Part shown: piece by piece, positions 1 to 7,243 of the stretch
Numbering within the stretch: the first letter of the stretch is position 1
Layout: each line of letters starts with the position of its first letter
Assembly: GCF_017348835.2 (NCBI RefSeq)
Contig: NZ_CP071375.1
Source: Escherichia coli
GTDB taxonomy: Bacteria; Pseudomonadota; Gammaproteobacteria; Enterobacterales; Enterobacteriaceae
Length of the DNA stretch: 64,000 bases
Strand: one strand, 5' to 3'
Position numbers and translations under genes: made by a program
The notes under the pieces: generated by a model
Seen by the model: only the letters and a program-made list of their open reading frames with translations
Databases searched by the model: none
What the model was told of the DNA's origin: nothing

Positions 1-497
1 AAATCTGGACCATTCCCGCCACAAGGGAAACAATTGAGAAAGTCCGTTTCTCTGGCCGTGGCGCAAAAATGCGTACTCCACATATTGTGCCACTTTCCCG
101 ACAGGCTATTGCCATTCTGAAGCAGATACAGGATATCTCAGGTCATCTGGATCTGGTGTTCCCCGGTGATCATAATCTCTATAAGCCAATGAGTGAAAAC
201 ACCACCAACCGGGCACTGCGGTTAATGGGCTATAACACAAAAACCGATGTGTGTGGTCATGGCTTTCGGGCAATGGCCTGTAGCGCGCTGGTGGAATCCG
301 AACTCTGGTCACGGGATGCCGTGGAGCGGCAGATGAGCCATCAGGAGCGCAACAGTGTGCGGGCGGCATATATCCATCGTGCTGAACATCTTGATGCCCG
401 TAAAGCCATGATGCAGTGGTGGTCGGATTATCTGGACGTGAGCCGCGAGGGGTACGTTGCGCCTTATATTTATGCGCGGCGGCATAAGGCGGCCTGA
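1..497 (+). CDS. P4-type tyrosine integrase, C-terminal catalytic portion (partial; 5-prime end outside window)
   Basis: Reading frame is open from the window edge to the stop at 497. C-terminal motifs HGFRAMACS, RAAYIHRAEH and MMQWWSDYLD are typical of P4/CP4-57 IntA-family integrases. Confidence 0.8.
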   Translation, partial: IWTIPATRETIEKVRFSGRGAKMRTPHIVPLSRQAIAILKQIQDISGHLDLVFPGDHNLYKPMSENTTNRALRLMGYNTKTDVCGHGFRAMACSALVESELWSRDAVERQMSHQERNSVRAAYIHRAEHLDARKAMMQWWSDYLDVSREGYVAPYIYARRHKAA

Positions 498-528
498 GCC
501 AGTCATTGCGTAATTTTCTGATAATGGA

Positions 529-566
529 AAAGCAGATCCTGATTGAATTCGGATCTGCTTTTTACA
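529..566 (+). terminator. Intrinsic terminator downstream of the integrase fragment
   Basis: 10-bp stem aagcagatcc/ggatctgctt with 11-nt loop followed by a T-run. Confidence 0.5.
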
Positions 567-888
567 TTAGACAATCTGCACCAGAAACTGATTTACCGGT
601 ACGCCATAACTGCACCAGTTCAATGCCACCGTTTACCTGCGCCAGTCTGCCGTCGCCCATTTATATCAGGACTGCGCCAGATACCATCGGATAAACATCG
701 ATCTGCGCCAGCTTTAGCCTTTTAAGCCCTTTGGCCTTTTCCGGTCTGGCGCTGTTACCCTTAGCCGCCCTTTACCTTTATCTGGCCTTTTTCTGGCGCA
801 ATGATCAGAAAAATACCGTAATGCTGCACCAGAATCCTGTTAATAGGCTATACCGTTCGTAAGCACCGTTATTAAGGGGAAACCGTAC

Positions 889-914
889 AAAAAATTTCTA
901 CGTAGAAATTTTTT
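889..914. repeat. Perfect 26-bp palindrome aaaaaatttctacgtagaaatttttt
   Basis: Read directly from the sequence; shares the arm gtacaaaaaattt with the palindrome at 3391-3426 on the other side of the IS66 element. Confidence 0.6.
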
Positions 915-1062
915 CGGTGGATAACGATGAATAAAGGGTATTTTATAATATGACGACTATCAAAAATCGTTCGCTCAAACATAATTCATTGATTTATCGT
1001 AACGTTCCGGTGAACTCACATTGACGGCGCTGACCGGTTCTGCATTCCGCAGTTCGTCCCGG

Positions 1063-2601
1063 TCAGTTATTCAGGGGATTTTTCGCGAAGGGTAACAGTT
1101 CGTGCTGCCGCTCCTGCGGCCATACCGGCAGACGCTCCAGCACCTGTTTCAGCCAGCCATACGGCTCCATGCCGTTCAGCCGCGCTGTCTCCAGCAGGCT
1201 CATCACCGCTGCCGCACGATGCCCTGCCTGCAACGAGCCGGCAAACAGCCACGTATTCCGCCCCATCACCACCTGCCGGATCGCACGCTCACACCGGTTA
1301 TTGTCCAGTGGCAGCGCACCGTCATCCACGAACCGGCTCAGTTCCGTTTTGTGAGACAGTGCATATTTTATCGCCTTATGCAGCGCCGAACCCGGCGCGC
1401 ACCGCTGTTCCTGCGCCGTCAGCCACGACCACAGCGCATCCAGTTGCGGTTTCGCATACCGCTGTCGCCACTGCCGGCGCTTTTCCGGCGACCTGTGGCG
1501 GAGACTGTATAACCCGTGGATCATCTTCAGCGCCGTTCCGGCATGGGGATCGCGGTTCGCCTTATATAACGCTACGAAGCCGCGCCGCGCGTGCGCCCAA
1601 CAGCCTGCGTTGATGATACTGCCACCGTTTTTCAGCGAGTGATACGCCGCGTAGCCATCTGTCACCAGAGTCCCGCTCCAGCCCGACAGCCACGCTTCAG
1701 AATAACGCGCCGCCCGTCCGGGCTGACAGTCGAAGCAGACCACGCTGTCGCCCGTGGCTTCGCCGCTGGCATACGCCCACAGATAACCGTTCTGCACTTT
1801 CCCGCCTTTCTTCGTGTTCAGGATTTGCAGCGGCGTTTCATCCGCATGAAGCACCGGGCGGCTTAACAGTTCCGTGCGCAGCAGCTCCGCCAGCGGCATC
1901 AGCCAGACGCAGGCCGCGCCCACCCATCCGGCCAGCGTGCTCACCGGCAGCTCCACTCCGGCGCGGGCGAACACCTGCTGCTGGTGATACAGCGGCTGAC
2001 GGTCGCAGAACTTGCTGACCAGCACCTGCGCCACCAGGCCCGGCTCCGGGATGCCCTTCGGGATAATCCGTGCGGGCAGACGGCCTGAGACCACGCACTG
2101 GCAGCCGTCGCAGCCGTACTGCGGGCGGACATAACGCTTCACCACGAACTGCGCGGGGATGTAGTCCAGCCGCTCACTGATTTCATCACGGATATGGCGC
2201 AGCGGCTGGCCGCAGTCCGGACAGGCGCAGGCGTCAGGTCTGATAACCGTTTCTTCGCGTGGCAGGTGCGCCGGCAGCGGTTTGCGGGCAGGACGGGCTT
2301 TTTTCTCTTCCGGCTCCGGTAGCAGACGCGTAAGCTGCGTTTCAGCAGAAGCGATATCCGCGTCGGCATCTTCTTCGAACAGGGAACGCTGTAAGCCGCT
2401 GAAGGATTCGGCATGACGGCCAAAACGCTGCTGGCGGGCCAGCATCAGGGCTTCTTTCAGCAGATGTATCTGGTGATCTTTTTTGTGGCTTTCTTCCAGG
2501 AGGGATAACGCCAGCTTACGCAGCGTGTCGGGGTCGTTGGTGGAGAGAAGCGCGGTGATATCCATGCCGGGTATTATACGCTTTCCGGTACGGATATTCA
2601 T
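1063..2601 (-). CDS. IS66-family transposase TnpC
   Basis: 512-aa ORF with Cys-rich zinc-finger region (CPDCG...CDGCQ) and IS66 transposase core. Confidence 0.85.
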   Translation of the reverse strand: MNIRTGKRIIPGMDITALLSTNDPDTLRKLALSLLEESHKKDHQIHLLKEALMLARQQRFGRHAESFSGLQRSLFEEDADADIASAETQLTRLLPEPEEKKARPARKPLPAHLPREETVIRPDACACPDCGQPLRHIRDEISERLDYIPAQFVVKRYVRPQYGCDGCQCVVSGRLPARIIPKGIPEPGLVAQVLVSKFCDRQPLYHQQQVFARAGVELPVSTLAGWVGAACVWLMPLAELLRTELLSRPVLHADETPLQILNTKKGGKVQNGYLWAYASGEATGDSVVCFDCQPGRAARYSEAWLSGWSGTLVTDGYAAYHSLKNGGSIINAGCWAHARRGFVALYKANRDPHAGTALKMIHGLYSLRHRSPEKRRQWRQRYAKPQLDALWSWLTAQEQRCAPGSALHKAIKYALSHKTELSRFVDDGALPLDNNRCERAIRQVVMGRNTWLFAGSLQAGHRAAAVMSLLETARLNGMEPYGWLKQVLERLPVWPQERQHELLPFAKNPLNN

Positions 2602-2607
2602 TTAAAA

Positions 2608-2964
2608 TCATTGCATTAGTAACGTGCATGATGCCCATTTTGTCAGGTCATGACCGGACATTTTCTGCCAGTCGATGCCGGAGACGAGCCAGTCAAACTG
2701 TTCCGGGGTGAGTGACCATGTGCTGTCGCCGTCACGCGGCCAGGTGAAACGCCCCCGGTGCAGGCGGCGGGAGCAGAGCCAGACGCCATGTTTATCCCAC
2801 CGCAGCAGTTTGATGCGGGTGCGGTTTTTATTGGTGAAGAGGAAGGCGGCGCCGTTATGCCAGGGCATGCAGAGTGAGTTCTGCACATACATCGTGAGGA
2901 CATCAATACCGCAGCGCATATCGACGGGATGGCGGACGAGGAAGAGGCGCTCAGGCTTCAGCAT
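2608..2964 (-). CDS. IS66-family TnpB-like protein
   Basis: 118-aa ORF with the typical IS66 orfB signature (LFLVRHPVDMRCGIDVL...). Confidence 0.75.
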   Translation of the reverse strand: MLKPERLFLVRHPVDMRCGIDVLTMYVQNSLCMPWHNGAAFLFTNKNRTRIKLLRWDKHGVWLCSRRLHRGRFTWPRDGDSTWSLTPEQFDWLVSGIDWQKMSGHDLTKWASCTLLMQ

Positions 2965-3262
2965 GTTTCACCGCCCGGAGAACGTCAGGAAGTTGAGCGG
3001 GAAGGCAGTCAATACGACAACCGCCGGGAAGATGGAGGGTGATGACGCCACCGGCTGGCGCGGGTTCAGGTGATGGCTGAATACAGACGGGCAGCAGTAC
3101 GGGGTGCTCAGCAACAGAGACGCCGTCATCCGGCAGGCGAAGCCATTCGTGAAAAGCATGTGAAGGAAGGCCGTGGAGGCGACAATACTGAAGCCGGGTA
3201 AGGCCGCTGGCGCGCCAGTCACGGACATGCTGAATTTTTTGCGTGGTGGAGTGGGTGGTCAT
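2951..3262 (-). CDS. IS66-family accessory protein TnpA-like
   Basis: First small ORF of the IS66 module, overlapping the start of the next ORF. Confidence 0.65.
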   Translation of the reverse strand: MTTHSTTQKIQHVRDWRASGLTRLQYCRLHGLPSHAFHEWLRLPDDGVSVAEHPVLLPVCIQPSPEPAPAGGVITLHLPGGCRIDCLPAQLPDVLRAVKHAEA

Positions 3263-3390
3263 GTTTTTATCTCACGGAATAAACATGACCACGATGCTAC
3301 AGGGCTGAAAAAATTTGAAAATGTGAGTTCACCGGAACGTTACAATTTAATAGTTGATGATTATTGATTTTGTCAGTGTTGATAGGAAAG

Positions 3391-3426
3391 CGTACAAAAA
3401 ATTTTGCCCCCAAAATTTTTTGTACG
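3391..3426. repeat. Palindromic site-like repeat: 15-bp inverted arms cgtacaaaaaatttt / aaaattttttgtacg around 6-bp spacer gccccc
   Basis: Read directly; lies about 110 bp downstream of the recombinase gene, surrounded by iterated ttttgcccc and ccgatg(g)ataa motifs (3400-3515). Confidence 0.6.
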
Positions 3427-3535
3427 AAAACCGATGAATAACCCGGGATTAATAGGAAACCACCCCAAATTATTTGCCCCAAATAATTTTGCCCGAAAAC
3501 CGATGGATAACGCGATCTTTTCAAGGCAACGGCTA

Positions 3536-4420
3536 TCAGTCAGTATCCCTTCGCCCGTAAACCTGCGCCACATACCGCCCGCGCCCGTCGCCGTGGCCCA
3601 AATCCATCGACGTCATCGCCAGCGCTTCCTTCTCACAAAATCCCTGCGCCAGATAATGACGAATGGCATCCTGCGCCCATGCGTAGCGCAACGAGTGCGG
3701 GGAATATGCGCCCGTTAAGCCAAGACGTGACGCCTGACTGTGCCAGTATTTCATCGCGCTTTTCAGATCCGGCTTATCTATCAGTCTGCCGTGACGATCT
3801 TCTGCCACCGCCAGCGCATTATCCAGCGCGTTTCTGACAGCAACAGCATCAATAATAATTGTCTCACGGGGTCGCCCGCCTTTGGTGCCGAACACCACGG
3901 TTAAGCGAGTGTCACCAAGATCCAGCGCCTGCCGCCACGTTTTCAGCGATTGTGCGCTTTGTACCGCCTCCTGCGAACGTAATCCCATCAGCCTTGAGAG
4001 TTCCAGCGTTGCCGCCAGCCCCGGATCTTTTGCGCGGGCGGTTTCCAGCACATGGCGGTAATGCTCCGGCGTGATGGCCCGCTTCGTACCGTTACGGGAT
4101 GCGCCAGACAGGCCCAGCGAGCGGTTATTCAGTCGCTCACTCTGCGCCAGCCTGTCACGCCCGGCCTGTTTCAGAATGCAGCGCACCGCCGCCATCTCAT
4201 TTTGCAGGGAACGCTTCGTGATACCCTGCGCCAGTCGTTCACGAACATATCCCTCAATATACCGCGCCTTAAGCTGCTCCACCCGGCGGATCTGCACATT
4301 CTGTGCCAGAACCAGACGCTCACAAAACCGCTGCACCAGCTTAATACGGTCGTGAACGGTCTTATGGCTGCCGCCCGCCTGCTGTGCCAGTCGCTTCATT
4401 TCCTGCTCCAGAATCCCCAT
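3536..4420 (-). CDS. Short tyrosine site-specific recombinase (phage-integrase family, Xer-like size)
   Basis: 294 aa; catalytic-type residues in RLMGLRSQE (Arg), HSLRYAWAQ (H-x-x-R) and C-terminal GRGRYVAQVYG (Tyr). Confidence 0.7.
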   Translation of the reverse strand: MGILEQEMKRLAQQAGGSHKTVHDRIKLVQRFCERLVLAQNVQIRRVEQLKARYIEGYVRERLAQGITKRSLQNEMAAVRCILKQAGRDRLAQSERLNNRSLGLSGASRNGTKRAITPEHYRHVLETARAKDPGLAATLELSRLMGLRSQEAVQSAQSLKTWRQALDLGDTRLTVVFGTKGGRPRETIIIDAVAVRNALDNALAVAEDRHGRLIDKPDLKSAMKYWHSQASRLGLTGAYSPHSLRYAWAQDAIRHYLAQGFCEKEALAMTSMDLGHGDGRGRYVAQVYGRRDTD

Positions 4421-5046
4421 ACATTCCCCCTTTCATGATTGCCGCAAACTCATCCCCAAAAACTCAACACTGATACAGCGTTCCCCGGCGCACAGGCCGA
4501 TAGCCCCTGAGTTTTGTCGGGGCTGCGAACGATACCTGAGCGCCGGGGCGGCAGCCGTTGAGGTGTGGTGGGGCTTCGGTTGTGCTCTCAGAGCAGCCGC
4601 CCGCTTGCGCGGGTCATCCCCCGGATCGTCCAGATCCGCCTCGGTATCGGTTCATGTTCTCCTTATGGGTAAATGGCCTGAAAAGGCGGTGTCAGAATCC
4701 AGCCATGAGCTGGCGCAGTTGAGTTTTCTGGTGCAGGTCGAAAGGGCTTGCGTGCGTCACTTTCCCGCTTTGCGCGGTTAAAGTGACGCACGGATCTGGT
4801 GCAGCATCTGAGATTTATCGTCTGGTGCAGTTTTACGGTCACGCGGCAGCAAAGCCTGACGGCAATGCAGGCCGCAGCCCGTAAGGTAAAAGGCGCTGAG
4901 GGTGTCAGCAGATGCAGGTTAGCCGGGAGAATTCCGGCGCGGTGCAGATTCAGACCAGCAGGCTGGCGAAGTAAAAGGATGTATCGTATTAAAACTCTGG
5001 CCTCCGTCGCGATGTTCTGCGACCCGGTGTTTGCAGAGGTCTGCAC

Positions 5047-5195
5047 CGGTAAACGGATCGACCGTCCTGATAACAGGCGCTTCTTTCAGGTTGTGAAGCG
5101 TTGGGCGCTGTCTACGACAGCATAGAGCAAGGGGGAGACTACGCCTGTGCCGCTGGCGCGGAAAGGAGAAACTGTTTTTACCTGCAAAAGGATTT
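5047..5195. repeat. Imperfect direct repeat, copy A, flanking the toxin-antitoxin cassette
   Basis: Shares ccggtaaa...ccgtcctgata.caggcgcttctttcaggt...tgaagc and gaaactg.ttt..c.g..aaaggatt with 6016-6147. Confidence 0.5.
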
Positions 5196-5269: not shown

Positions 5270-5602
5270 TCAGCTCAGAATAGCTTCCAGTCGAGCCAGC
5301 ACCTCATTCACGACAGCATCGGGTATACGTTCCAGCCGCTTACCGCTCCGAGCTCCCATATCAATGGTTCTGGGCTGGTCGCAGCGAATAACGCCCGTTG
5401 TTTTTGTTCCCGCCCCGTCCAGTGAAACGGTAAAACCGGCTTCGCGGGCAAAGTTTCCGCCGCTGGTGACAGGGACAACAACAGGCAACCGGGTGAACGT
5501 GTTAAACGATGCCTTCGATACGATGAGTACCGGACGTTTTCCACTTTGTTCATGGCCAGTGGTGGGATCCAGTGAAACGAGCCAGATTTCTCCTCTGTCC
5601 AT
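5270..5602 (-). CDS. PemK/MazF-family endoribonuclease toxin (ChpB-like)
   Basis: 110 aa; GEIWLVSLDPTTGHEQSGKRPVLIVS and GGNFAREAGF resemble ChpB/MazF. Confidence 0.85.
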   Translation of the reverse strand: MDRGEIWLVSLDPTTGHEQSGKRPVLIVSKASFNTFTRLPVVVPVTSGGNFAREAGFTVSLDGAGTKTTGVIRCDQPRTIDMGARSGKRLERIPDAVVNEVLARLEAILS

Positions 5603-5860
5603 CTACAGGATCTCCTTGCCCACCGCAGGCGCATCAATCCATTCCCGACCCTCTTCGCTTATTTCAGCGTGCGGATCGCACTGCGCCAACAGTTCTTCGA
5701 GCGAATAGCGGGGACGTTTTTGAGGTTCAATAATCAGGCAGCCATCATCAATGGTCATGCCCACTTCGCTGTCCGTCGACAGCCCTAGCGTTTTCAGCAC
5801 GGCGGGGGGAACCGCCAGCATGACGGATCCGCCAACCTTTTTCAGGCGAGTGGTATACAT
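5603..5860 (-). CDS. MazE/ChpS-like antitoxin
   Basis: ATG at 5858-5860 with GAGGTG just upstream; 85 aa; RYSLEELLAQCD motif as in ChpS; stop abuts the toxin start. The longer ORF-track call (to 6013) is taken as an upstream extension. Confidence 0.8.
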   Translation of the reverse strand: MYTTRLKKVGGSVMLAVPPAVLKTLGLSTDSEVGMTIDDGCLIIEPQKRPRYSLEELLAQCDPHAEISEEGREWIDAPAVGKEIL

Positions 5861-6208: not shown

Positions 6209-6415
6209 TCAGCGGTAGCGCGAAGGCCAGATTTGCTCAGGCTTGAAGCCTAACGCTTCGGCAATTAACCTTTCGCCTTTGGGCCAGCGGCGGGTAAGCG
6301 CATTAGCCAGCGTGGAGGACGCCAGACCTGCCTGACGCGAAAGCGCTGACAGCGAAGTGCCTCGTTTTTTCAGCCCGGCGATAATGTCGGCAGGATGCCA
6401 GTCCTGCAGCATCAT
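6209..6415 (-). CDS. Ner/Nlp(SfsB)-family small DNA-binding protein
   Basis: 68 aa; WHPADIIAGLKKRGTSLSALSR...STLANAL...WPKGE...WPSRY matches the Ner/Nlp family. Confidence 0.8.
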   Translation of the reverse strand: MMLQDWHPADIIAGLKKRGTSLSALSRQAGLASSTLANALTRRWPKGERLIAEALGFKPEQIWPSRYR

Positions 6416-6873
6416 GCAGCCACCTCGTCGATAAACTTCACGCCGTCGGCGGTGCGGAGCCAGCGCGGGGCTTTCATTTCGGCGGCAAAATACCAGACCA
6501 GTTCACATAATAAGCCTGTTATCGTCTGCTCCACTTTTGGCTGCATCCCCTGCCCGATAAGAAGTTGCGCCAGCGTCAGTGAGTAATCACAAAGTAATTC
6601 TGCGTCGGGGACAAATCGGGGCATATCGGCAGGTAGAGCATCAACGGTCAGGCTGTCAGTCAGATGAGACGGGATGGGGTCGTTCAGCGTGGGTTGCAGC
6701 AAAGTGAGACAGGCGGCAAGTCGCCCGCAAAGCGCCAGCCGCAGCACCGGATCTTCGCTTTCGATCAGGGTTTCGGCGACGTTTTCGCAGTGGTCTGCCA
6801 GTACGGTAAAATCTGTGGCAGCACTGAAGGGAACAGCAAGTAACGGGTGTGTCTGAGTGGGGATCGTAGCCAT
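6412..6873 (-). CDS. Hypothetical protein, 4-bp overlap with the Ner-like gene
   Basis: 153-aa ORF with high GC and no motif I recognise; the overlap suggests an operon with the Ner-like gene. Confidence 0.5.
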   Translation of the reverse strand: MATIPTQTHPLLAVPFSAATDFTVLADHCENVAETLIESEDPVLRLALCGRLAACLTLLQPTLNDPIPSHLTDSLTVDALPADMPRFVPDAELLCDYSLTLAQLLIGQGMQPKVEQTITGLLCELVWYFAAEMKAPRWLRTADGVKFIDEVAA

Positions 6874-7035
6874 AAAGGCAGCCTCCAGTATGTGGTTTGA
6901 AAACCACCACCAGAGGTTCCAATCTCATGGGTGGTGGACTGAACGAGGTTGGAACTACCGGCCATACTGGAACCGGCGCACCTTACGGTGCCCCCGCCCA
7001 GCCCACCATAATTTTGGTGTAGCTAAGCGCGCGAC

Positions 7036-7058
7036 ATAAAAAAAGACGCAGACGCGTC
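7036..7058 (-). terminator. Possible intrinsic terminator for the AT-rich two-gene operon
   Basis: Minus-strand hairpin gacgc-gtct-gcgtc followed by a 7-nt U-run, about 190 bp downstream of the 534-aa ORF. Confidence 0.4.
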
Positions 7059-7243
7059 ACGTGTCGCCAGTATGGTTATATTTCGGGGTTCCAATCCCGG
7101 CACCTGATTTTGCAGGTGCGGGTAAAAGATACCGCTTTCGGTTGAAAACGGCAAGGGGAAGTCGTGGAATAGAGATCGCAGATTGTTATAAATATACACA
7201 ATAGTTAATGTTAACAAAGACGGCACATATATTAACTTTACTC

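What the first reader, a model, noticed from the sequence alone, without database searches (positions are those of the whole stretch)
880..3430. Palindromic site-like repeats beside a short tyrosine recombinase, split by the IS66 insertion
A perfect palindrome with 15-bp arms around a 6-bp spacer (3391-3426) lies about 110 bp downstream of the 294-aa recombinase gene. A related perfect 26-bp palindrome (889-914) sharing the arm gtacaaaaaattt lies just beyond the other end of the IS66 element. Iterated ttttgcccc and ccgatg(g)ataa motifs surround both. Arms-plus-spacer geometry is what Xer/Cre/Flp-type recombinases use, so these could be cognate recombination sites or a former att or invertible-switch region that IS66 has interrupted.
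Basis: partly seen in the sequence, partly recalled or inferred. Interest (0 to 1): 0.55.

Follow-up and report, generated by a model that had tools for sequence, protein, structure and literature searches.

The report
Hairpin repeats beside a relaxase-like recombinase
The palindromes are real copies of a conserved 58-base DNA hairpin repeat in the control region of a small mobilizable island at tRNA-Asn, but they are very unlikely to be crossover sites for the neighbouring recombinase-like gene.

Summary
The window has three copies, not two, of one 58-nt module: A 875-932, B 3382-3439 and C 3452-3508. Each is a 5' box (ATAGGAAA), a palindromic stem and a 3' box (GAAAACCGATKAAT). An IS66-family element (999-3343) sits in the AT-rich spacer between A and B.

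Across 28 module copies, 13 of 16 stem pairs covary. Modules A and B are 93-98% identical between islands whose genes differ by dS 0.33-0.6. All copies share one polarity.

They do not look like Cre/Xer/Flp sites. Stems and loops (0-6 nt) differ between copies in one island. Copy number runs from 0 to 5. They are missing from several loci with an intact gene and from all distant homologues. No inversion was seen, and the island's att lies at tRNA-Asn.

The 294-aa gene is a complete two-domain tyrosine-recombinase fold (Pfam PF12835 + PF12834) under purifying selection. It is preceded by the orphan Rfam motifs EFASI and STAXI, by iterons, and by a GC-rich inverted repeat found with homologues in every clade. 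That repeat is the better cognate-site candidate.

Best reading: the modules are accessory structured-DNA hairpins in the cis-acting region of an MpsA/MOB_M-like mobilizable island. Their biochemical role is inferred, not shown.

The parts
1..497 (+). 3' end of the island's P4-like tyrosine integrase gene (int), next to tRNA-Asn in complete genomes
   Evidence: NCBIfam PRK09692 domain match. Full-length int follows tRNA-Asn in L001, L002 and L053.
528..562 (.). Hairpin terminator after int (AAAAGCAGATCC...GGATCTGCTTTT)
   Evidence: Inverted repeat I9, 17-nt arms, 1 nt apart. Conserved in related loci.
576..832 (+). Left iteron block. Six CTGCRCCAG copies at 576, 610, 637, 672, 703 and 824. Two inverted near-copies at 749-757 and 792-800. 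A highly conserved GCCYTTT / T-tract block at 712-823.
   Evidence: 14 of the window's 18 exact matches lie in 576-4830, against 1.17 expected in the whole window. Iterons are conserved downstream of the gene in all loci of the >=80% clade. The block is 77-94% identical across loci.
875..932 (+). Hairpin module A (perfect 26-bp palindrome 889-914; the 3' box contains GGTGGATAA, an 8/9 DnaA-box match on the minus strand)
   Evidence: Model R1 57.5 bits. 93-98% identical across islands. DNA fold -10.6 kcal/mol, z -3.9.
933..998 (.). Left part of the AT-rich spacer between modules A and B (27% G+C)
   Evidence: Contiguous with 3344-3381 in L002 except for a 13-bp deletion. G+C.
999..3343 (-). IS66-family insertion sequence (tnpA 2951-3262, tnpB 2608-2964, tnpC 1063-2601). 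A secondary insertion, not part of the system.
   Evidence: NCBIfam IS66 TnpA/TnpB/transposase matches. Perfect 24-bp terminal inverted repeats, single copy in the window. Absent from L001-L009 and other loci; no target duplication.
3344..3381 (.). Right part of the AT-rich spacer (24% G+C)
3382..3439 (+). Hairpin module B (16-nt perfect arms 3391-3406 / 3411-3426, 4-nt loop)
   Evidence: Model R1 81.6 bits. 93-98% identical across islands, with a compensatory G:C to A:T change in L001 and L004. DNA fold -16.7 kcal/mol, z -7.5.
3452..3508 (+). Hairpin module C (arms 3467-3476 / 3480-3489, 3-nt loop)
   Evidence: Model R1 67.2 bits. The stem is extended by compensatory changes in L007, L021 and L024.
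3536..4420 (-). 294-aa two-domain tyrosine-recombinase-fold protein (Pfam Phage_int_SAM_2 + Integrase_1), a candidate MpsA/MOB_M-like relaxase
   Evidence: Pfam 1.4e-35 and 5.3e-63. R148 K180 H242 R245 H276 Y288 are invariant. AlphaFold pLDDT 86.9, matching XerA/XerH/lambda Int/Tn1549 Int/Cre over full length. dN/dS 0.08-0.17.
4526..4655 (-). EFASI RNA motif (Rfam RF02957), 106 nt upstream of the gene's start codon
   Evidence: 118.7 bits against a gathering score of 51.2, E 5e-25, full length. Present upstream of homologues in all clades.
4710..4830 (-). Right iteron block. Four CTGCRCCAG copies (4710, 4728, 4796, 4822), inverted relative to the left block. They bracket the conserved inverted repeat GTGCGTCACTTT-N16-AAAGTGACGCAC (4752-4791).
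   Evidence: GCGTCACTT-N12-26-AAGTGACGC occurs exactly once, 330-490 bp upstream of the gene, in 46 loci of all clades including the plasmid locus L055, which carries ICE-type conjugation genes.
4983..5122 (-). STAXI-like element (Rfam RF01728), below threshold here
   Evidence: 37.3 bits against a gathering score of 40.5. 42 bits in L005. 65-135 bits on both sides of the gene in the distant clade.

Best explanation
The palindromes are three copies (A, B, C) of a 58-nt structured-DNA module. Each module is a 5' box (ATTRATAGGAAA), a 12-18-bp stem kept by compensatory change, a 0-6-nt centre, and a 3' box (GAAAACCGATKAATA).

The modules belong to the large non-coding int-mob region of a family of small integrative mobilizable islands at tRNA-Asn in Enterobacterales. 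The conserved island backbone runs in this order: int, iterons with a T-tract block, modules, the PF12835 gene, EFASI, iterons with a GC-rich inverted repeat, STAXI, optional pemIK, a ner-like HTH gene, hyp153, and C4/isrK.

The 294-aa protein is a complete tyrosine-recombinase fold of the Pfam family that others use as the signature of the SGI1 relaxase MpsA. It most likely acts as the island's DNA-processing (nicking/transfer) enzyme on the region upstream of its own gene.

The modules are accessory. They most likely work at the DNA level as extruded or single-stranded hairpins, read by shape plus the two flanking boxes, in a fixed strand polarity. Their role would be to help process the excised or transferred island DNA, for example by loading or priming on single-stranded DNA or by shaping the nucleoprotein complex at the neighbouring iteron block. 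They are not crossover sites.

Shown: the module family, its covariation, its purifying selection, its fixed polarity and its clade-limited distribution. Also shown: the fold and catalytic residues of the protein, the EFASI/STAXI/iteron/inverted-repeat architecture, and the secondary nature of the IS66 insertion. Inferred: relaxase activity, DNA-level rather than RNA-level action, and any role in transfer or replication.
For: Structure is kept while sequence varies. 13 of 16 stem pairs change on both sides. 91.5% of cells pair, against 76.4% in shuffles (0/500 reach the observed value) and 38-52% when partners are slid.

Sequence is selected. A and B are 93-98% identical between islands whose genes differ by dS 0.33-0.6, and they are the best conserved parts of the intergenic region.

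The unit length is constant at 57-58 nt and the boxes are conserved. Every strong hit has the same polarity.

No strand bias of the kind expected for RNA is seen: 15 G.T against 16 A.C cells, and the inner 12 pairs are 97% Watson-Crick.

The modules are specific to this island. In E. coli they occur in 39 of 5426 complete genomes, one place per genome except one genome with two. They have no phage or plasmid relatives and no Rfam family.

On the protein: Pfam PF12835 + PF12834, and PF12835 is used as the MpsA-like 'INT_DTR_like' signature (PMC10484663). The catalytic hexad is invariant and the fold is a two-domain tyrosine recombinase.

A 47% identical homologue on plasmid L055 lies about 5-9 kb from ICE-type conjugation genes (TIGR03756-family and TraG N-terminal proteins).

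The islands, and the 8-kb plasmid L056, carry a separate integrase or recombinase as well.

The upstream order STAXI, inverted repeat, EFASI, gene mirrors the SGI1 order oriT, sgm-sRNA, mpsA (PMC9299015; PMC6414798).

MOB_M relaxases are reported to be common beside integrases in chromosomal islands, with oriT upstream (bioRxiv 10.64898/2026.01.13.699239).
Against: No experiment or transcript data bear on the modules. Against TcpM only the HxxR region aligns (E 2e-4), and TcpM hits PF00589 rather than PF12835. Published TR-like relaxases are said to lack the core-binding domain (PMC8152469), whereas this protein has one.

The modules lie downstream of the gene, not where oriT is expected. They are dispensable in several lineages. 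Fixed polarity could simply reflect descent by tandem duplication. On the gene-sense strand each hairpin is followed by TTTCC, and module B was flagged as terminator-like, so an RNA role is not excluded. The window's copy of C folds weakly.
Confidence: 0.4

Rival explanations
1. One reading: the palindromes are cognate crossover sites (arms plus spacer) of the adjacent tyrosine recombinase. On this view they are a resolution, inversion or secondary attachment system that IS66 has split.
For: The neighbour is a complete, catalytically intact two-domain tyrosine recombinase fold. The palindromes are conserved and lie within 30-700 bp of its 3' end in one clade. Their two outer boxes are imperfect inverted repeats of each other.
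Against: Arm sequences differ between copies and covary. The centre varies from 0 to 6 nt and is not shared by A, B and C. There are 0-5 copies, and they are absent next to intact orthologues in L014, L017, L018, L019, L023 and next to all 48-54% identical homologues. Gene orientation is invariant. A different inverted repeat and the iterons track the gene in every clade.
Confidence: 0.06
2. RNA-level elements: tandem terminator-like or stabilising 3'-UTR hairpins for the mob transcript on the minus strand. They would also shield the convergent int gene from antisense read-through.
For: Module C starts 28 nt after the stop codon. On the gene-sense strand every hairpin is followed by TTTCCTAT. 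Module B was flagged by the terminator scan. No other terminator follows the gene before the int terminator. Polarity is uniform. Stems vary in sequence while pairing is kept.
Against: There is no excess of G.U-compatible cells on the transcribed strand (16 against 15), and inner pairs are 97% Watson-Crick. Stems are AT-rich and the T run is only 3 nt. Both flanking boxes and the 58-nt geometry are conserved, which a terminator does not need. A and B are conserved in sequence, loops included. There is no Rfam match.
Confidence: 0.2
3. Double-stranded protein-binding sites: palindromic operators or architectural sites of an origin-like region made of iterons, phased T-tracts, a DnaA-box-like sequence and AT-rich DNA. 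They would be bound by an island, helper or host protein.
For: A and B are 93-98% conserved in sequence. They flank an iteron block with a conserved T-tract block. Module A carries an 8/9 DnaA-box match, and the A-B spacer is 24-27% G+C. The left-type modules have their outer boxes swapped and inverted, which gives box symmetry around the iteron block.
Against: Whole stems are replaced by unrelated sequence with pairing kept, in L008, L049, L007 and L024. That pattern selects for intrastrand pairing, not for one operator sequence. The roughly 13-kb island encodes no Rep gene. The DnaA-like box is not conserved in B and C of other loci.
Confidence: 0.2
4. Functionless palindromic repeats that spread by local duplication and template switching in AT-rich spacer DNA.
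For: Copy number is variable. Precise palindrome deletions are seen in L010 and L022. Loop inversions (CCC against GGG) occur between orthologous copies. Several lineages have lost the modules altogether.
Against: Conservation is far above synonymous-site identity. The boxes are conserved while the linkers between modules are only 50-83% identical. The modules are retained across genera from Escherichia to Tatumella and Brenneria relatives.
Confidence: 0.1

Closest known systems
SGI1 mobilization module (oriT, sgm-sRNA, mpsA, mpsB) and the wider MOB_M / tyrosine-recombinase-like relaxases (MpsA, MobK, TcpM)
   Same: A tyrosine-recombinase-fold protein with an intact catalytic set sits on a small integrative element that has its own separate integrase. 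It carries the Pfam family (PF12835) used as the MpsA-like signature. Upstream of the gene lie a GC-rich inverted repeat and then a structured RNA-like motif.
   Different: This protein has a fused N-terminal core-binding-like domain (PF12834). MpsA relies on a separate MpsB, and MobK and TcpM are reported to lack such a domain. No AT-rich hairpin modules or 9-bp iterons are described for SGI1, pIGRK or pCW3. No direct sequence comparison with MpsA or MobK was possible, and similarity to TcpM is marginal.
Rfam EFASI (RF02957) and STAXI (RF01728) motifs
   Same: The locus shows the published association of STAXI, then EFASI, then an 'integrase' gene, all on one strand, with C4 antisense RNA nearby. 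Like the modules, STAXI is a tandemly repeated structured unit that its discoverers thought might act as single-stranded DNA. In the distant clade a STAXI copy sits just downstream of the gene, where this clade has the modules and the left iteron block.
   Different: The modules have no detectable similarity to STAXI or to any Rfam family. They are AT-rich simple hairpins rather than GC-rich pseudoknot units with UUCG loops. Their polarity is opposite to the gene, whereas STAXI and EFASI are called on the gene's strand.
Structure-recognised hairpin sites (integron attC; oriT inverted repeat plus nick region; plasmid or phage single-strand initiation signals)
   Same: Boxes are conserved at the base, the stem is variable but always paired, polarity is fixed, and a tyrosine-recombinase-fold enzyme or DNA-transfer module is nearby.
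   Different: There are no RYYYAAC/GTTRRRY boxes, no cassettes between modules and no IntI-type integrase. The outer boxes keep a mismatch rather than pairing cleanly. No nick site or priming activity is known, and no sequence similarity to plasmid DNA was found.
loxP / FRT / dif-type core recombination sites
   Same: Inverted arms around a short centre, next to a tyrosine recombinase-like gene.
   Different: Arms are not constant, the centre is 0-6 nt and varies, copies do not share a spacer, and the modules are not obligatory partners of the gene.

Membership tests
Cre/Flp/Xer-type core recombination site | Two inverted recombinase-binding arms of essentially fixed sequence | tested here: not met
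   13 of 16 stem positions change on both sides across 28 copies. Whole arms are replaced in L008, L049, L007 and L024.
Cre/Flp/Xer-type core recombination site | Fixed 6-8-bp central spacer shared by partner sites | tested here: not met
   The unpaired centre is 0-6 nt. In the window, A has none (CTAC|GTAG pairs), B has CCCC and C has CCC.
Cre/Flp/Xer-type core recombination site | Site accompanies the recombinase gene wherever the gene occurs | tested here: not met
   Model R1 finds no module in L014, L017, L018, L019/L050 or L023, nor in any locus of the 48-54% clade or plasmids L055 and L056.
Invertible DNA switch | Both orientations of the segment between inverted sites are found among related genomes | tested here: not met
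   The gene is convergent with int and co-oriented with the ner-like and hyp153 genes in every locus that holds them.
MOB_M / tyrosine-recombinase-like relaxase (MpsA, MobK, TcpM) | Tyrosine-recombinase catalytic domain with R-K-H-R-H/W-Y | tested here: met
   R148, K180, H242, R245, H276 and Y288 are invariant in an alignment that includes TcpM. The fold matches XerA, XerH, lambda Int and Cre.
MOB_M / tyrosine-recombinase-like relaxase (MpsA, MobK, TcpM) | Matches the profile used for the family (PF12835 in PMC10484663; CONJscan MOB_M HMM, cut-off 84, in the 2026 preprint) | tested here: inconclusive
   PF12835 matches at 5.3e-63 and is the published MpsA-like signature. TcpM hits PF00589, not PF12835.
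MOB_M / tyrosine-recombinase-like relaxase (MpsA, MobK, TcpM) | No core-binding domain in the relaxase itself (as stated for MobK, TcpM and MpsA) | tested here: not met
   The N-terminal 92 residues match Phage_int_SAM_2 at 1.4e-35. The model aligns over about 300 columns with two-domain recombinases. The literature statement is in PMC8152469.
MOB_M / tyrosine-recombinase-like relaxase (MpsA, MobK, TcpM) | Cognate oriT with inverted repeats next to the gene; needed for conjugative transfer | not testable with these tools
   A conserved inverted repeat (4752-4791) and iterons lie upstream in all clades. A homologue lies about 5-9 kb from ICE-type conjugation genes.
Rfam EFASI (RF02957) | Score at or above the curated gathering threshold | tested here: met
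   118.7 bits against 51.2, over model positions 1-133.
Rfam STAXI (RF01728) | Score at or above the curated gathering threshold | tested here: not met
   37.3 bits against 40.5 in the window. The orthologous site in L005 reaches 42.0, and distant-clade copies reach 65-135.
Integron attC site | Conserved R''/R' boxes (RYYYAAC / GTTRRRY), gene cassettes between sites, IntI-type integrase | tested here: not met
   The boxes are ATTRATAGG and CCGATKAAT. Modules are 69-70 bp apart with no ORF between them. The protein is PF12835, and no integron integrase was found.
Intrinsic (Rho-independent) terminator | GC-rich stem followed directly by a run of U | tested here: inconclusive
   Module B on the minus strand passes a loose scan (16 pairs, 4 G-C, tail CTTTCCTATC). 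The stems are AT-rich and the run is 3 T.
Iteron-type replication origin | Direct iterons, AT-rich region, DnaA box, and an adjacent Rep gene | tested here: inconclusive
   Iterons, a 24-27% G+C spacer and an 8/9 DnaA-box match are present. No Rep gene is present in the roughly 13-kb island.
IS66 family insertion sequence | tnpA-tnpB-tnpC genes, terminal inverted repeats starting GTAA, 8-bp target duplication | tested here: not met
   The genes and 24-bp terminal repeats are present. The flanks GATTTATC and AATTTAAT are not a duplication, and 13 bp of the target are missing. It is an IS66-family element with an atypical junction.

The most novel reading that the evidence does not exclude
The modules are folded-DNA substrates, analogous to integron attC sites, for the PF12835 tyrosine-recombinase-fold enzyme. 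On this reading the enzyme reads a hairpin's shape plus two flanking boxes on one strand and cleaves or joins single-stranded DNA there. The modules would then be secondary initiation, termination or strand-joining sites for island transfer. The orphan EFASI/STAXI motifs and the upstream inverted repeat would be the primary origin of the same machine.
Probability: 0.1. Interest if true: 0.75.

Novelty: new variant of a known kind. Interest (0 to 1): 0.45.

Why it matters
The gene family is very common. It is labelled only 'integrase domain-containing' or 'DNA-binding protein', and some clusters are seen on about 1000 contigs. It is the 'integrase' that defines the orphan Rfam motifs EFASI and STAXI, whose function has been open since 2010 and 2017.

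This locus lays out a compact and testable cis-architecture around it: a universal GC-rich inverted repeat, 9-bp iterons on both sides of the gene, a T-tract block, and a previously uncatalogued family of covarying hairpin modules.

If the protein is an MpsA-like relaxase, two things follow. These small tRNA-Asn islands, which carry defence-type cargo here, would be mobilizable elements whose transfer origin can now be mapped. The modules would be a new accessory element of such origins.

For annotation, the result warns against reading every palindrome beside a tyrosine-recombinase-like gene as its crossover site.

Tried and rejected
None of the 80 loci contains a module. It served only as a specificity control.

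2. A literature search for 'STAXI' alone returned psychology papers.

3. pIGRK (AY543071) is not in the plasmid collection. MpsA (AAK02039.1) could not be reached, so there was no direct comparison with two of the three characterised relaxases.

4. Cluster look-ups gave no functional names and none of the preprint's seed accessions. The preprint's supplements are not held.

5. PDB sequence search gave no hit. NCBIfam gave only a weak XerC match.

6. I considered a small Lys/Gly-rich ORF across the GCCYTTT block. I rejected it because the window has no start codon and the indels between clades are not multiples of three (read).

7. I considered the iterons as arm-type sites of the P4-like integrase. 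I rejected this because they lie about 1.5 kb from the tRNA-Asn core.

8. I considered the modules as dispersed MITE- or REP-like repeats. I rejected this because they occur at one place in all but one of the E. coli genomes that have them, and always in this island.

9. I considered mimicry of a plasmid oriT or a phage packaging site. No similarity was found.

10. Pairing of the outer boxes as a second helix is not supported. The central mismatch persists (A.G or C.T) with little compensation.

11. Promoter searching in the A-B spacer gave nothing above shuffled expectation.

Full report
**What is at the coordinates**

The window begins inside a P4-like tyrosine integrase gene that ends at 497. 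In complete E. coli genomes the same island sits directly after a tRNA-Asn gene.

A non-coding stretch follows on the plus strand. It is interrupted by an IS66-family element at 999-3343. That element has tnpA, tnpB and tnpC and perfect 24-bp terminal repeats, and it is the only copy in the window. A 294-aa gene follows on the minus strand at 3536-4420.

One has 16-nt perfect arms at 3391-3406 and 3411-3426 around 4 nt. The other is a 26-bp perfect palindrome at 889-914.

The repeat finder also shows that they belong to a three-member direct-repeat family: 878-938, 3385-3445 and 3454-3514.

**Pre-insertion state**

Strain CFIAFB20190157 (L002) carries the same island at 95-99% identity without the IS. 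Removing 999-3343 from the window restores its sequence except for 13 missing bases. There is no 8-bp target duplication.

The IS therefore landed in the AT-rich spacer between module A and module B. It did not cut a palindrome. LF82 has an independent IS200 insertion next to the int terminator.

**The module family**

I collected related loci through the 294-aa protein: 50 genomes of different species and 40 E. coli genomes. The palindromes turned out to be the centres of a unit of constant length, 57-58 nt.

The unit is ATAGGAAA, two variable bases, a stem of 10-18 pairs, a centre of 0-6 bases, then GAAAACCGATKAAT.

On an alignment of 28 distinct copies, 13 of the 16 stem pairs show changes on both sides. 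91.5% of cells pair, against 76.4% in shuffles, and none of 500 shuffles reaches the observed value. Pairing falls to 38-52% when partners are slid by 1-3 columns.

Some copies have entirely different stems between the same boxes. Examples are CCTGATGATATTTGA/TCAAATATCATCAGG in L008 and L049, and ACCCAAAATTATTTG/CAAATAATTTTGGGT in L007.

A covariance model built from the alignment gives these results:
- It finds exactly three copies in the 64-kb window.
- It finds one to five copies in most loci whose protein is at least 80% identical.
- It finds none next to the 48-54% identical homologues, none on the two plasmids examined, and none in 877 kb of unrelated DNA.
- All strong hits have the same polarity, antisense to the 294-aa gene.

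In E. coli the modules occur in 39 of 5426 complete genomes. All but one of these has a single place, and it is always in this island. They have no relatives in the phage or plasmid collections beyond the same island on one large Salmonella replicon. They match no Rfam family.

**Selection**

The gene is under purifying selection, with dN/dS of 0.08-0.17. Its synonymous divergence from other islands is 0.33-0.85.

Against that background, conservation across the intergenic region is as follows:

| Segment | Identity to the window |
|---|---|
| Module A | 93-98% |
| Module B | 93-98% |
| Module C | 79-91% |
| A-B spacer | 79-88% |
| Linker between B and C | 50-83% |

The modules are therefore maintained, in sequence as well as in structure.

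They are nevertheless dispensable over evolutionary time:
- L014, L017, L018, L019/L050 and L023 keep an intact gene and iterons but have no module.
- L010 and L022 carry remnants from which the palindrome has been cleanly removed.

**DNA or RNA**

Non-Watson-Crick cells show no strand bias. There are 15 G.T and 16 A.C cells, and the latter would be G.U on the other strand. The inner twelve pairs are 97% Watson-Crick. Loops are C-rich in some copies and G-rich in orthologous ones.

This symmetry fits a DNA palindrome better than an RNA hairpin, though it does not exclude RNA. On the gene-sense strand each hairpin is followed by TTTCC, and module B passes a loose terminator scan.

Modules on the integrase side of the iteron block ('left-type') have their outer boxes swapped and inverted relative to B-type modules. 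The two boxes are X = ATTGATAGG and Y' = ATTAATCGG. The A-tract linkers keep the same strand in both types. I report this as an unexplained regularity.

**Why they are not crossover sites**

A Cre/Flp/Xer-type site needs constant arms and a fixed, shared 6-8-bp spacer. Here the arms vary and covary, and the centre is 0-6 nt. The three copies in one island have different centres.

Copy number and position vary. The orientation of the gene relative to int and to the ner-like and hyp153 genes is the same in every locus. The island's att is at tRNA-Asn, about 1.5 kb away.

**What does track the gene**

Three other non-coding features travel with the gene.

1. A 9-bp iteron, CTGCRCCAG. It occurs six times at 576-832 and four times, inverted, at 4710-4830. 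Fourteen of the window's 18 matches lie within 576-4830, against 1.17 expected for the whole window. Both sets are conserved in the whole >=80% clade, including Brenneria and Lonsdalea.

2. An inverted repeat, GTGCGTCACTTT-N16-AAAGTGACGCAC, at 4752-4791 between the upstream iteron pairs. The pattern GCGTCACTT-N12-26-AAGTGACGC occurs exactly once, 330-490 bp upstream of the gene, in 46 loci of every clade. That includes a plasmid carrying ICE-type conjugation genes.

3. The Rfam motifs. EFASI is at 4526-4655 (118.7 bits). A sub-threshold STAXI is at 4983-5122.

In the distant clade the order is STAXI, inverted repeat, EFASI, gene, STAXI. The two STAXI copies are roughly 190-bp direct repeats of about 87% identity. 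In the window's clade the modules and the left iteron block occupy the position of the downstream STAXI.

EFASI is defined in Rfam as 'Frequently Around STAXI and Integrases', with function unknown. STAXI was suggested to act possibly as single-stranded DNA.

**The protein**

It matches Pfam Phage_int_SAM_2 (residues 1-92) and Integrase_1/PF12835 (residues 103-251). R148, K180, H242, R245, H276 and Y288 are invariant in an alignment that reaches a Burkholderiales plasmid homologue and TcpM.

The AlphaFold model (pLDDT 86.9) aligns over its full length with XerA, XerH, lambda Int, Tn1549 Int and Cre.

Several lines point to a role as a relaxase:
- PF12835 is the profile one group uses as the signature of the atypical SGI1 relaxase MpsA.
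- A 2026 preprint reports that such MOB_M relaxases are the commonest relaxases in chromosomes. It finds 96% of them next to an integrase, with oriT upstream.
- An 8-kb plasmid encodes a homologue as well as an ordinary tyrosine recombinase.
- In SGI1 the order is oriT, an essential small RNA, then mpsA. That parallels inverted repeat, EFASI, gene here.

Several points count against simple membership:
- The characterised relaxases are said to lack a core-binding domain, and this protein has one.
- TcpM matches only around HxxR and belongs to PF00589.
- I could not obtain MpsA or MobK for a direct comparison.

**Conclusion**

The mechanistic interpretation as recombination sites, former att or invertible switch is not supported.

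The best-supported account is that the palindromes are accessory, structure-selected DNA hairpin modules. They lie within the cis-acting region of a small mobilizable island at tRNA-Asn whose 'recombinase' is a relaxase-like enzyme. The likely primary site of that enzyme is the conserved repeat, iteron and EFASI region upstream of the gene.

What the modules do biochemically remains inferred. Candidates are loading or priming on single-stranded DNA, a cruciform acting as an architectural element, or an RNA 3' end. The experiments listed under next steps would decide between them.

Noticed in passing
window 4526-4655 (-) and 4983-5122 (-): A full-length EFASI RNA motif (118.7 bits) lies 106 nt upstream of the 294-aa gene. 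A STAXI-like element (37.3 bits, just under threshold) lies further upstream. In distant homologues, STAXI flanks the gene on both sides as direct repeats of about 190 bp.
   Followed up: partly
window 4752-4791; 46 related loci: The GC-rich inverted repeat GCGTCACTT-N12-26-AAGTGACGC occurs exactly once, 330-490 bp upstream of every homologue examined (48-100% protein identity). This includes a plasmid that carries ICE-type conjugation genes. It is the best candidate for the enzyme's cognate site or oriT core.
   Followed up: partly
window 576-832 (+) and 4710-4830 (-); also 3644, 4142, 4226, 4331 inside the gene: The 9-bp iteron CTGCRCCAG has ten non-coding copies in two inverted sets bracketing the gene. 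Four more copies lie inside the gene, all in one orientation, where they encode Leu-Ala-Gln. In part of the clade the innermost downstream and outermost upstream copies extend to a 19-bp inverted repeat (815-833 / 4821-4839). In Brenneria-group loci an iteron sits in the loop of the int terminator.
   Followed up: partly
window 712-823: A GCCYTTT / GGCCTTTT-rich block has T-tracts at 713, 720, 730, 737, 771, 777 and 788. It is conserved even in Brenneria and Lonsdalea, and it may be intrinsically curved DNA. The minus strand reads as a Lys/Gly-rich peptide, but without a start codon.
   Followed up: partly
window 6927-7132 (-): C4 antisense RNA (83 bits), isrK (73 bits) and the c4 a1/b1 target motif lie upstream of the hyp153 / ner-like HTH operon (6209-6873). 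This is a P1-type immunity cassette inside the island backbone, and it is conserved across the related loci.
   Followed up: no
window 5270-5860 (-): A PemK/MazF toxin with an AbrB/MazE-type antitoxin lies between the STAXI-like element and the ner-like gene. It is present in only some related islands.
   Followed up: no
window 999-3343 and flanks: The IS66-family element has no 8-bp target duplication, and 13 bp of target are missing relative to L002. Strains PE164 and F2_81 match the queried stretch that starts at the IS right junction (3344-4700) at 100% identity, and PE164 is annotated with the IS itself.
   Followed up: yes
window 7244-about 11700 (-): The island cargo is an LA2681-family HEPN protein (534 aa) followed by a protein of about 946 aa, which looks defence-like. 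An IS3 element and a truncated Ig-like-domain gene come next. In strain PE164 the island is only about 13 kb and has no conjugation or replication genes.
   Followed up: no
L010 and L022 (related loci): These loci carry module remnants in which the palindrome has been removed between the repeated GTAC(A)n arms, leaving the two flanking boxes fused. This shows that the palindromes are deletion-prone.
   Followed up: partly
L012, L013, L019, L050 and L016 (Affinibrenneria salicis): One genome holds five copies of the gene. Four lie within 40 kb as two inverted pairs about 6.6 kb apart, each with its own integrase, which suggests tandem accretion of small islands.
   Followed up: no
related loci, int side of the iteron block (e.g. 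L005 5595-5652, L007 5595-5651): 'Left-type' modules have their outer boxes (ATTGATAGG / ATTAATCGG) swapped and inverted relative to B-type modules, while the A-tract linkers keep the same strand. The boxes are thus symmetric around the iteron block. The window's own island lacks these left modules.
   Followed up: partly
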